From Escherichia coli (GTDB lineage Bacteria; Pseudomonadota; Gammaproteobacteria; Enterobacterales; Enterobacteriaceae), in NCBI RefSeq assembly GCF_003334385.1, contig NZ_QOWN01000154.1: 670 nt of DNA. One strand, written 5' to 3'. Made by a program: the position numbers and the translations under genes. Positions 2-670 of the stretch are shown piece after piece; position 1 is the first letter of the stretch; every line of letters begins with the position of its first letter. Below the pieces are notes generated by a model that worked only from the letters and a program-made list of their open reading frames with translations, searched no databases and had not been told where the DNA came from.

Positions 2-295
2 TACTCGAGGGAATTAGCCGATGCGAGAGCTGAAAATGAAACTCTGCGCGCTGACGTTGCCGCTGGTCGTAAGCGCCTGCGGGTCAACGCCACCTGCCCC
101 GGTACCGTGCGTGAAGCCACCGGCACCTCCGGCGTGGATAATGCAACCGGCCCCCGACTGGCAGACACCGCTGAACGGGATTATTTCACTCTCAGAGAGC
201 GGTTGATGCTGATGCAGAAGCAGCTGGAAGGGGCGCAGGAATATATCCGCACTCAGTGCACTAAGCTGGCTTTTTATTATCCGGAGGATATATGA
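2..295 (+). CDS. Rz: Rz i-spanin (inner-membrane spanin subunit), C-terminal portion; 5' end lies upstream of the window
   Basis: Frame 2 is open from position 2 to TGA at 293-295. My translation is YSRELADARAENETLRADVAAGRKRLRVNATCPGTVREATGTSGVDNATGPRLADTAERDYFTLRERLMLMQKQLEGAQEYIRTQCTKLAFYYPEDI. From memory this aligns closely with the C-terminal half of lambda Rz (...KELADAKAENDALRDDVAAGRRRLHIKAVCQSVREATTASGVDNAASPRLADTAERDYFTLRERLITMQKQLEGTQKYINEQCR), including both periplasmic Cys positions. The track ORF 107..295 is only the internal-Met part of this frame. Confidence 0.9.
   Translation, partial: YSRELADARAENETLRADVAAGRKRLRVNATCPGTVREATGTSGVDNATGPRLADTAERDYFTLRERLMLMQKQLEGAQEYIRTQCTKLAFYYPEDI
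7..11 (+). promoter_or_regulatory. Shine-Dalgarno-like GAGGG for Rz1, located inside the Rz coding sequence
   Basis: GAGGG lies 9 nt upstream of ATG at 21. This spacing fits translation initiation of the embedded gene. Confidence 0.5.
21..206 (+). CDS. Rz1: Rz1 o-spanin, outer-membrane lipoprotein, embedded in the +1 frame of Rz
   Basis: Track ORF MRELKMKLCALTLPLVVSACGSTPPAPVPCVKPPAPPAWIMQPAPDWQTPLNGIISLSESG (61 aa). From memory it resembles lambda Rz1 (MLKLKMMLCVMMLPLVVVGCTSKQSVSQCVKPPPPPAWIMQPPPDWQTPLNGIISPSERG). It has a hydrophobic signal peptide, a lipobox V-S-A-C with Cys at codon 20 (nt 78-80), Gly at +2 (no inner-membrane retention Asp), and a proline-rich mature part with a conserved internal Cys (PVPC). 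A GAGGG Shine-Dalgarno at 7-11 lies 9 nt upstream of ATG 21. The true start could instead be ATG 36 (MKLCAL...). Confidence 0.86.
   Translation: MRELKMKLCALTLPLVVSACGSTPPAPVPCVKPPAPPAWIMQPAPDWQTPLNGIISLSESG
274..282. repeat. Left copy of an exact 9-bp direct repeat TTATTATCC
   Basis: An identical 9-mer recurs at 523-531. This copy lies immediately 5' of the SD of the small ORF, within the 3' tail of Rz. Confidence 0.35.
283..288 (+). promoter_or_regulatory. Shine-Dalgarno GGAGGA for the downstream small ORF, inside the last codons of Rz
   Basis: GGAGGA at 283-288 is followed by ATG at 292, a short 3-4 nt spacing. ATG 292-294 overlaps the Rz stop TGA 293-295 (ATGA), a typical translational-coupling arrangement. 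Confidence 0.5.
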
Positions 296-516
296 AGAAA
301 TTACGGGTAACCGTAGAACCTTTTCAGGGAACAATTCCGTTCCGTATTTTGCAGCGTGGTCGTGTTCTTGTTGAAGGTTCGTTCAGTGGTAAATGTACGC
401 AATTACACTCCCGGACCTTTCAGGTGAATGCCACGAATGAAGAGCTAACCGTTGAGTGTACGATGAATGCCGCTAAATGCCGCATGGTATCCGCTGCATT
501 ACAGCCAGTGTGTTGA
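292..516 (+). CDS. Hypothetical small protein (74 aa), no family recognised; candidate moron or accessory gene downstream of the lysis cassette
   Basis: Track ORF MKKLRVTVEPFQGTIPFRILQRGRVLVEGSFSGKCTQLHSRTFQVNATNEELTVECTMNAAKCRMVSAALQPVC, ATG to TGA, with SD GGAGGA upstream and ATGA overlap with Rz. By my manual counts GC is about 45-48% in 301-480, against roughly 68-70% in 61-180 and about 60% in 541-600. It has no signal peptide or hydrophobic segment, and four Cys that do not form a CxxC motif. Alternating hydrophobic and polar residues near the N-terminus suggest beta strands. Confidence 0.5.
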   Translation: MKKLRVTVEPFQGTIPFRILQRGRVLVEGSFSGKCTQLHSRTFQVNATNEELTVECTMNAAKCRMVSAALQPVC

Positions 517-522
517 GCGACC

Positions 523-531
523 TTATTATCC
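523..531. repeat. Right copy of an exact 9-bp direct repeat TTATTATCC
   Basis: Identical to 274-282. It starts 7 nt after the TGA stop of the small ORF at 514-516. Confidence 0.35.
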
Positions 532-642
532 ATGCGCGGTATTGTCGCCGTATTCCTGCATTAACAGAGACCGCAGCCCGACCGGGAGACTCCTCTGCGC
601 GAGTGTGCGGGGATAATCAAAAACGATACACACCGGGGTTTA

Positions 643-661
643 CCGCGTTAACGGAGCGCGG
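643..661. other. Short inverted repeat (CCGCG-N9-CGCGG) containing the palindrome CGTTAACG; possible weak hairpin
   Basis: CCGCG at 643-647 pairs with CGCGG at 657-661, and the loop contains the palindromic octamer CGTTAACG at 646-653. No U-run follows (GCGTTGTCCC), so it is not a convincing intrinsic terminator. Confidence 0.2.
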
Positions 662-670
662 CGTTGTCCC

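What the first reader, a model, noticed from the sequence alone, without database searches (positions are those of the whole stretch)
274..531. Exact 9-bp direct repeat TTATTATCC brackets the small ORF (cassette-like unit of about 249 bp)
Directly seen: TTATTATCC occurs at 274-282 and again at 523-531. Together the two copies enclose exactly the SD, the ORF and its stop, and the enclosed segment is the low-GC part of the window. Inference: this looks like a recombination junction or insertion footprint from acquisition of the ORF. Caveat: by my rough estimate about one exact 9-mer repeat is expected by chance in a 670-bp window, more so for AT-rich words. The evidence is therefore the placement relative to the ORF, not the repeat alone.
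Basis: partly seen in the sequence, partly recalled or inferred. Interest (0 to 1): 0.45.

Follow-up and report, generated by a model that had tools for sequence, protein, structure and literature searches.

The report
Prophage mosaic joint, not insertion footprint
The exact 9-base repeat around the small gene is real, but comparison with thousands of related E. coli prophages shows an ordinary patchwork junction after the phage lysis gene Rz rather than the scar of a mobile gene cassette.

Summary
Observation confirmed. TTATTATCC occurs exactly at 274-282 and 523-531, bracketing the SD, a 74-codon ORF and its stop, and the enclosed DNA has lower GC (47.5% vs 59%).

Interpretation only partly holds. 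The window is the Rz/Rz1 end of the lysis cassette of a lambdoid prophage (E. coli SW070917). Many relatives lack the ORF, but they carry no copy of the 9-mer. About 273 nt (259-531) is replaced by an unrelated 19 nt that includes a different Rz end. A single-copy "empty site" was not found in 5,426 E. coli genomes, IMG/VR or 241 million metagenome records.

The left copy is the end of a T-rich leader that travels with the Rz 3' end. With 1-4 substitutions it also precedes ORF homologues that have no right copy. The right copy ends the ORF's 15-nt trailer, exactly at a recurrent mosaic joint that three different upstream neighbours share. Only 27 of 68 distinct ORF-containing (occupied) sequences have 9/9 identity.

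There are no terminal inverted repeats, no recombinase gene nearby and no other insertion sites. The ORF is a real, conserved gene (dN/dS about 0.3, small beta-sandwich, function unknown).

Verdict: an ordinary lambdoid mosaic junction. The repeat is a coincidence of two AT-rich spacers or a microhomology relic. Low interest.

The parts
2..295 (+). 3' part of Rz (i-spanin, 'lysis protein'). In this lineage the canonical stop is lost and the frame runs on 9-10 codons (..TQCTKLAFYYPEDI*) to TGA 293-295.
   Evidence: RefSeq annotation of the 100% identical source locus. The frame is seen. Relatives end ..QCIK* (TAG) or ..QCLN* (TAA).
21..206 (+). Rz1 (o-spanin lipoprotein) embedded in the +1 frame of Rz.
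   Evidence: 61-aa ORF with lipobox-like ..LVVSAC. 'Rz1 family lipoprotein' annotations lie under matches. The embedded arrangement is established knowledge for lambda Rz/Rz1.
259..273 (+). Variable end of Rz / former stop-codon region, and the left breakpoint zone. Homology with different relatives stops at 258, 265 or 277.
   Evidence: Alignment A1. Junction read-outs for L001, L005, L006, L007.
274..282 (+). Left copy TTATTATCC. It is the last 9 nt of a T-rich leader (271-282) that abuts the SD. It codes for ..(F)YYP.. of the extended Rz.
   Evidence: With 1-4 substitutions (TTGTTATCC/-TTC/-TCA/-TCG, TTGTCAATC) it also precedes ORF homologues of 62-80% identity. It co-varies with the Rz allele.
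283..287 (+). Shine-Dalgarno GGAGG of the small ORF.
   Evidence: Sequence. Conserved as GGAGG, GGAGA or GGGGG in most sampled leaders; L250/L251 have GGAGT.
292..516 (+). ORF74: a conserved 74-aa protein of unknown function, and a real gene. Its start overlaps the Rz stop (ATGA).
   Evidence: dN/dS 0.25-0.37 between alleles. Open in nearly all sampled variants (one allele truncated to 64 aa by an early stop), including one with an in-frame 9-nt deletion. phrog_2571, unknown function. No Pfam, NCBIfam or PADLOC match. AF2 pLDDT 89.6, seven-strand beta-sandwich. Only generic fold matches.
517..522 (+). Variable 6-nt spacer of the ORF trailer: GCGACC here; GCGAGC, GCAAGC, GTGACC, GTCACC, CTGTTC in other alleles.
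523..531 (+). Right copy TTATTATCC: the last 9 nt before the joint with the downstream module.
   Evidence: Variants TTATTATTC and TTATTAACC exist. It is only ever found preceded by the ORF trailer.
532..670 (.). Conserved non-coding module that continues beyond the window. Its left edge is a recurrent mosaic joint shared by three unrelated upstream neighbours.
   Evidence: 120 IMG/VR loci were classified. No Rfam hit, and no consensus promoter or terminator within this stretch. No excess RNA stability. The ATG at 532 is not conserved.

Best explanation
The window shows one widespread configuration of the end of the lysis cassette of lambdoid prophages: Rz/Rz1, a small accessory gene (ORF74), then a conserved non-coding module.

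ORF74 has no consensus promoter or terminator of its own here. It is read from the late transcript (inferred). It is probably translated by coupling to Rz (inferred): a T-rich leader directly follows Rz, can pair with the ORF's SD and AUG, and in this lineage Rz even terminates in an ATGA overlap.

The two TTATTATCC copies are not a target-site duplication or a cassette attachment site. The left copy is the tail of the leader and belongs to the Rz 3' flank. The right copy is the tail of the ORF's 15-nt trailer, abutting a module boundary where different upstream genes have been joined by recombination.

ORF-less relatives are an alternative mosaic arrangement with a different Rz end plus an 8-nt spacer. 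They are not the pre-insertion or post-excision state of this one.

The 9/9 identity is most simply a coincidence between two short AT-rich spacers, inherited by descent. It was probably sharpened by a G-to-A change in the left copy, because the more distant alleles carry TTGTTATCC.
For: Shown:
- Source and gene order.
- Empty forms replace 259-531 by about 19 unrelated nt and have no 9-mer.
- Three different left neighbours abut exactly at 532.
- No single-copy junction in E. coli genomes, IMG/VR or metagenomes.
- The leader, with a slightly variant left copy, precedes ORF homologues whose downstream DNA is different and lacks a right copy.
- Against the O157 prophage, the Rz 3' half and the leader differ (58/258 and 12/33 nt) while the ORF and right flank are nearly identical (5/225, 1/139). 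The leader therefore goes with Rz.
- One homologue carries a 65-nt Rz-end remnant in front of its leader, 440 nt from another intact Rz.
- Only 27 of 68 distinct occupied sequences are 9/9.
- No inverted repeat at the inner ends (6/15 by inspection).
- No recombinase gene in 8.7 kb.
- No consensus promoter or terminator around the ORF.
- The leader:SD/AUG hairpin is predicted and compatible with 94.7% of cells in 11 leader variants.
- ORF74 is under purifying selection.
Against: - The placement of the pair is improbable by chance (about 1e-3).
- Both copies end exactly at boundaries: the SD on the left and the module joint on the right.
- The right 9-mer is unchanged in ORF alleles whose adjacent spacer differs (CTGTTC vs GCGACC).
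- L250 has a leader-like stretch (AGCTTTTCATTCTTATAC) before the same downstream module.

These points leave room for a real historical link between the copies.

The hairpin has no significant covariation and no significant z-score. Coupling and late-transcript expression are inferred, not shown.
Confidence: 0.55

Rival explanations
1. The repeat is a relic of the founding recombination. The downstream module was once preceded by its own Rz-type T-rich leader ending in TTATTATCC. An unequal or illegitimate exchange between two phage genomes then placed leader-ORF74-spacer in front of it, possibly guided by this microhomology and by phage Red/RecET-type annealing. That would leave a partial duplication of the leader on both sides of the ORF.
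For: - Improbable placement.
- The right copy abuts the joint exactly.
- ORF-less forms have a leader-like TTTTGYTG in the same place.
- L250 has a longer leader-like stretch before the module.
- Deletions in this same region are demonstrably bounded by 4-12 nt direct repeats.
- RecET-promoted recombination at 5-13 bp is described in the literature (PMC2327257, citing Shiraishi 2002).
Against: - The required parent (single copy followed by ATGCGC) was not found anywhere.
- Similarity does not extend beyond 9 nt.
- More distant alleles have TTGTTATCC on the left, so the copies may originally have been 8/9.
- All occupied loci may descend from a single event, so there is effectively one observation.
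Confidence: 0.3
2. TTATTATCC is a functional motif needed at both places, for example a protein-binding site or an RNA element such as an RBS-occluding or long-range pairing partner, and is kept by selection.
For: - The left copy can pair with the SD and AUG.
- A complementary GGATAAT(C)AAAA lies at 611-622 (pair I1).
- The centroid fold pairs 526-531 with 611-616.
- The right 9-mer is conserved next to a variable spacer.
Against: - Both copies vary within close lineages (TTATTATTC, TTATTAACC, TTGTTATTC..TCG..TCA).
- Changes at position 8 of the two copies do not track each other (L117, L241, L243).
- The 510-640 fold is no better than shuffles (z = +1.1).
- No Rfam family matches.
- Conservation of the right copy fits the 5-15% divergence of its flank.
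Confidence: 0.1
3. This is a mobile cassette: a transposon- or MITE-like element with a 9-bp target-site duplication, or a circular cassette integrated by site-specific recombination at a 9-bp core.
For: An exact 9-bp direct repeat brackets a promoterless ORF of lower GC.
Against: - No terminal inverted repeats.
- No transposase or integrase gene nearby.
- No attC-like structure.
- Every copy found sits after Rz or an Rz remnant.
- No single-copy empty site.
- Empty relatives differ by substitution, not a clean indel.
- ORF alleles with dS 0.4-1.0 sit in the same place.
Confidence: 0.03

Closest known systems
Mosaic module junctions ('novel joints') of lambdoid phages, located at gene boundaries (Juhala et al. 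2000 and Hendrix et al. from my own knowledge; discussed in PMC2327257)
   Same: Similarity to relatives changes abruptly within a few nt of stop codons. The same flanks carry alternative contents. Flanks are about 95% identical while the enclosed gene exists as alleles with dS 0.4-1.0.
   Different: Nothing essential. The coincidence of an identical 9-mer on both sides is not a described property of such joints.
Morons of lambdoid phages (extra genes between conserved genes, often of deviant GC)
   Same: A small accessory gene, present in some and absent in other collinear phages, with lower GC than its surroundings and located in the late region.
   Different: Classical morons carry their own promoter and terminator and are expressed from the prophage. 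None was found here. The ORF overlaps the Rz stop and looks dependent on late transcription and Rz translation.
Short conserved 'linker/boundary' sequences proposed to mediate module exchange (Susskind and Botstein 1978 and Clark et al. 2001, from my own knowledge; cited as ref. 9 in PMC2327257)
   Same: A variable block (SD-ORF-spacer, several deep alleles) lies between short constant sequences.
   Different: 9 nt is far below the efficient homology length. The constant sequences continue into long conserved flanks (Rz and the downstream module), which suffice to explain allele exchange.
Target-site duplications of IS elements (9 bp for IS1, IS10, IS50 and IS903, from my own knowledge)
   Same: Direct repeat of 9 bp.
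   Different: No inverted terminal repeats, no transposase, a single genomic context and no single-copy empty site.
Deletion between short direct repeats (slipped mispairing or RecA-independent illegitimate recombination)
   Same: ORF-less or truncated relatives in this region (L005, L156-158) are deletion derivatives whose endpoints share 4-12 nt. The 9-mer pair would be a substrate for such a deletion.
   Different: The predicted product of deletion between the two TTATTATCC copies was not observed in any collection.

Membership tests
Transposable element with target-site duplication | Flanking direct repeats of fixed length | tested here: met
   Exact 9 bp at 274-282 and 523-531.
Transposable element with target-site duplication | Terminal inverted repeats just inside the duplication | tested here: not met
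   No inverted pair joins 283-297 with 508-522. By inspection 6/15 complementary.
Transposable element with target-site duplication | Copies at several unrelated sites; transposase in cis or trans | tested here: not met
   In every locus inspected the ORF follows Rz or an Rz-end remnant, with the flanks read directly in about 17 fetched loci; the ORF occurs in 1,245 of 5,426 E. coli genomes. No transposase in 8.7 kb.
Transposable element with target-site duplication | Empty site with a single copy of the duplicated sequence | tested here: not met
   Empty relatives have no copy. No single-copy junction found.
Integron-type or site-specific gene cassette | Recombination site (attC-like imperfect palindrome) at the cassette end and a cognate integrase | tested here: not met
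   Only 15 nt lie between the stop and the joint. No palindrome. No integrase in the neighbourhood.
Lambdoid moron | Extra gene absent from otherwise collinear relatives | tested here: met
   Occupied and empty forms share flanks.
Lambdoid moron | Deviant base composition | tested here: met
   47.5% vs 59% GC.
Lambdoid moron | Own promoter and terminator, giving autonomous expression | tested here: not met
   No consensus promoter or terminator flanks the ORF. The start overlaps the Rz stop. A consensus scan is weak negative evidence.
Mosaic module junction of lambdoid phages | Abrupt loss or gain of similarity at gene boundaries, with the same boundary reused by different neighbours | tested here: met
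   Breakpoints at 258/259, 265 and 277 (the Rz end) and at 531/532. Three upstream neighbours abut at 532.
Rz/Rz1 spanin gene pair (context) | Rz homologue with embedded +1-frame lipoprotein gene, downstream of holin and endolysin | tested here: met
   Annotation of the source locus and PF03245/PF06085 on neighbours. Embedded 61-aa ORF.

The most novel reading that the evidence does not exclude
The constant 9-mers are genuine crossover points. TTATTATCC on both sides of a variable SD-ORF-spacer block would act as a minimal linker at which phage annealing recombinases swap ORF74 alleles or insert and delete the gene. That would be a natural example of linker-mediated cassette exchange in lambdoid phages.
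Probability: 0.08. Interest if true: 0.5.

Novelty: already known. Interest (0 to 1): 0.15.

Why it matters
The finding itself matters little. It is a worked example of a short flanking repeat that looks like an insertion scar but, once compared with relatives, is better explained as a mosaic joint after Rz.

Useful by-products:
- ORF74 is a real, selected, widespread small phage protein of unknown function. It occurs in about 23% of complete E. coli genomes, including O157:H7 and Stx phages, and sits directly after the spanin genes.
- One lineage has lost the Rz stop codon and carries a C-terminally extended i-spanin.
- Gene loss in this region demonstrably proceeds by deletions between very short direct repeats.

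Tried and rejected
- Searches for the single-copy junction: a synthetic 36-mer by megablast, a 38-mer by blastn, IUPAC patterns in IMG/VR and in metagenomes. All were negative. The 21 IMG/VR hits were unrelated contexts.
- Search for the trailer plus right copy joined to something other than the ATGCGC module: none.
- Function of ORF74: Pfam, NCBIfam and PADLOC gave nothing. PHROGs gave only an unknown-function family. Fold searches gave generic beta-sandwich matches (Z up to 6.6) and uncharacterized enterobacterial proteins.
- RNA element in or around the right copy: no Rfam hit, and the fold is no better than shuffles.
- Leader hairpin: plausible, but covariation is not significant.
- A longer duplication, with the Rz end plus leader resembling the ORF end plus trailer (CAGTG..): rejected, because ORF homologues show that this 3' end is ordinary ORF sequence and local alignment stops at 9 nt.
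- Mini-ORF starting at ATG 532: rejected, because the ATG is GGG or TGG in other alleles.
- The search for related loci with the protein alignment returned only near-identical loci. Diversity came instead from the look-up of encoding contigs.

Full report
**What is in the window**

The 670 nt are 100% identical to E. coli SW070917 chromosome positions 1857542-1858211, inside a lambdoid prophage. The annotated gene order there is:
- holin, lysozyme, antirepressor
- 'lysis protein' (Rz; window 2-295)
- a 74-aa hypothetical protein (window 292-516)
- about 345 nt of non-coding DNA
- a TonB-family gene, YlcI/YnfO, an HNH endonuclease and terminase

Rz1 is embedded in Rz at 21-206.

**Checking the observation**

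TTATTATCC is present exactly at 274-282 and 523-531 and nowhere else. The two copies enclose the SD GGAGG (283-287), the ORF and a 6-nt spacer. The enclosed DNA is 47.5% GC against 59% on each side.

The left copy is actually inside the Rz frame in this lineage. Rz ends at TGA 293-295 and overlaps the ORF start as ATGA.

An exact 9-mer direct repeat somewhere in such a window is expected half the time. The window holds a second one, CTCTGCGCG at 42/593.

A pair that brackets the ORF within 20 nt on each side is rare in shuffles: P = 0.0008, and 0.00075 with composition-matched 20-mers. Similarity does not extend beyond the 9 nt. The placement is therefore unusual but post hoc.

**Comparison with relatives**

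The phage collection and 5,426 complete E. coli genomes contain both forms. 'Occupied' loci match the full window in 1,180 genomes. 'Empty' loci match in two pieces spanning 416 or 398 nt.

The alignment shows that empty forms share the window up to 258 (..CAGTGC) and again from 532 (ATGCGC..). In between they carry about 19 unrelated nt (CTGAACTAAGTTTTGCTG), which include a different Rz end (..QCLN*). They contain no TTATTATCC. The difference is thus a substitution that starts in the last Rz codons, not a clean insertion bounded by the repeat.

Other ORF-less relatives lose homology at 265 or 277 and continue into other modules (L007, L005).

**The right boundary**

I retrieved 120 IMG/VR loci with an invariant 24-mer of the right flank. 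Three unrelated left neighbours abut exactly at ATGCGC:
- the ORF trailer (..GCGACCTTATTATCC|)
- the Rz ..QCLN/K* stop plus GTTTTGYTG|
- the end of an antirepressor-like gene plus CATAGCC|

Position 531/532 is therefore a genuine, reused mosaic joint, and the right copy lies on the ORF side of it. The right copy plus module is never preceded by anything but the ORF trailer. The trailer plus copy is never followed by anything but this module.

**The left copy**

ORF homologues of 62-80% protein identity were found in other E. coli prophages and in Salmonella. All are preceded by the same kind of leader directly after an Rz stop: TAG/TAA, 1-2 nt, a T-run, then TTGTTATCC / TTGTTATCA / TTGTTATCG / TTGTCAATC, then the SD.

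Several of these have entirely different downstream DNA and no right copy. A second small ORF follows in L010, L154, L162 and L011.

In L156-158 the homologue lies 440 nt beyond a different, intact Rz. It is nevertheless preceded by a 65-nt remnant of an Rz 3' end plus the leader.

Against the O157:H7 prophage, the Rz 3' half and the leader differ strongly (58/258 and 12/33 nt). The ORF and right flank are almost identical (5/225 and 1/139). The leader, including the left copy, therefore travels with Rz and not with the ORF.

Relatives with an intact stop (..QCIK* TAG TC TTTTTATTATCC; L047, L252) show that the window lineage has lost the Rz stop. That is why Rz here reads through the left copy.

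**How exact and how conserved is the pair?**

Among 68 distinct occupied sequences:
- 27 are 9/9.
- 26 are 7-8/9. Left variants are TTGTTATCC, TTGTTATTC and ..TCG. Right variants are TTATTATTC and TTATTAACC.
- The rest have other downstream sequence or truncated ORFs.

Changes in the two copies do not track each other (L117, L241, L243).

The right 9-mer is unchanged in alleles with different spacers (GCGAGC, GCAAGC, GTGACC, GTCACC, CTGTTC). However, the adjoining module is only 5-15% diverged in those loci, so this is not significant conservation.

The more distant alleles carry G at the third position of the left copy. The perfect match in the window may therefore be derived (inference).

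**Search for the predicted single-copy site**

No match was found to leader-TTATTATCC-ATGCGC junctions in any of the following:
- E. coli complete genomes (the best hits were occupied sites)
- IMG/VR
- 241 million metagenome records

**Mobile-element features are absent**

There are no inverted repeats at the inner ends. No transposase or integrase gene lies within 8.7 kb. No other insertion contexts were found.

**Gene loss in this region**

L005, which looks like an empty counterpart of L011, retains a 35-nt internal fragment of the second small ORF. It differs from L011 by two deletions whose endpoints share TTTAT(C) and CAGGGTRTGRGG. L156-158 carry a deletion bounded by ATGG. Short direct repeats are therefore demonstrably used for deletions here.

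The literature notes RecET-promoted recombination at 5-13 bp, and debates illegitimate versus homeologous recombination at lambdoid mosaic borders (PMC2327257). The product expected from deletion between the two TTATTATCC copies is nevertheless not observed.

**The ORF**

It stays open in nearly all variants: one allele is truncated to 64 aa by an early stop, and one has an in-frame 9-nt deletion. dN/dS is 0.25-0.37 with dS up to 1.0. It belongs to phrog_2571, of unknown function, and has no Pfam, NCBIfam or PADLOC match.

AlphaFold gives a confident seven-strand beta-sandwich (pLDDT 89.6). That model resembles only generic sandwich/CBM-like domains (Z up to 6.6) and uncharacterized small proteins of enterobacteria and their phages.

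No consensus promoter or terminator flanks the ORF.

The leader (271-282) can pair with the SD, the AUG and the first codons (286-298). This pairing is possible in 94.7% of cells across 11 leader variants, with one compensatory change, but without significant covariation. Translational coupling to Rz is therefore a reasonable but unproven mechanism.

**Conclusion**

The repeat is real, and its right copy marks a true recombination joint. The evidence speaks against an insertion footprint or a cassette site.

The best reading (about 0.55) is an ordinary lambdoid mosaic junction, in which two short AT-rich spacers, the Rz leader and the ORF trailer, happen to end in the same 9-mer.

A real historical link, meaning partial leader duplication or a microhomology-guided founding joint, remains possible (about 0.3). 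A shared functional motif (about 0.1) and a mobile cassette (about 0.03) are unlikely.

Noticed in passing
window 259-295 (compare L047, L252, L005, L011): This lineage has lost the canonical Rz stop codon (TAG after ..QCIK in relatives; CTG or CAG here). The i-spanin gains a 9-10 residue C-terminal tail (..KLAFYYPEDI) and ends in an ATGA overlap with the next gene. The extended form is common: it covers most of the 27 distinct sequences that have the exact repeat.
   Followed up: partly
window 532-670 and beyond (L008 4532-4860; L250 1050-1400): A conserved non-coding module with a sharply defined left edge is shared by three different upstream neighbours. A diverged copy lies about 330 nt upstream of a lambda-like cos/Nu1 region in L250. 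It has no Rfam match and no excess RNA stability; no consensus promoter or terminator falls within 532-670, though a weak promoter-like site (9/12) lies at L008 4801-4828. Its function is unknown.
   Followed up: partly
L005 1760-1810 vs L011 1180-1660: An apparently ORF-less prophage retains a 35-nt internal fragment of a second small ORF. It derives from an occupied form by two deletions whose endpoints share 5-12 nt direct repeats.
   Followed up: yes
L156-L158 1059-1500: An ORF74 homologue sits 440 nt downstream of a different, intact Rz. It is preceded by AT-rich DNA with terminator-like hairpins and then a 65-nt remnant (75% identical) of another Rz 3' end plus the leader. The ORF has therefore moved together with an Rz end.
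   Followed up: partly
L010, L154 (Salmonella), L162, L011: just downstream of the ORF74 homologue: In the more distant relatives ORF74 is followed by a second conserved small ORF (66-71 aa, no Pfam). This may be the older arrangement. That gene is absent from the window's configuration.
   Followed up: no
window 611-622 vs 271-282 and 523-531: GGATAATCAAAA is complementary (11/12) to the T-rich leader and 7/7 to the ATTATCC of the right copy. The centroid fold pairs 526-531 with 611-616, but overall stability is no better than shuffled sequence.
   Followed up: partly
L012 (E. coli STECUZB006) 1201-1245: A degraded prophage remnant keeps only the last 36 nt of ORF74 plus the right copy and the downstream module, joined to unrelated upstream DNA.
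   Followed up: no
window 292-516 across alleles (L004, L159, L163, L244-248): ORF74 exists as several deep alleles (dS 0.4-1.0) embedded in flanks that are about 95% identical. Either the flanks have been repeatedly homogenised or the alleles have been swapped by recombination in Rz and the downstream module.
   Followed up: partly
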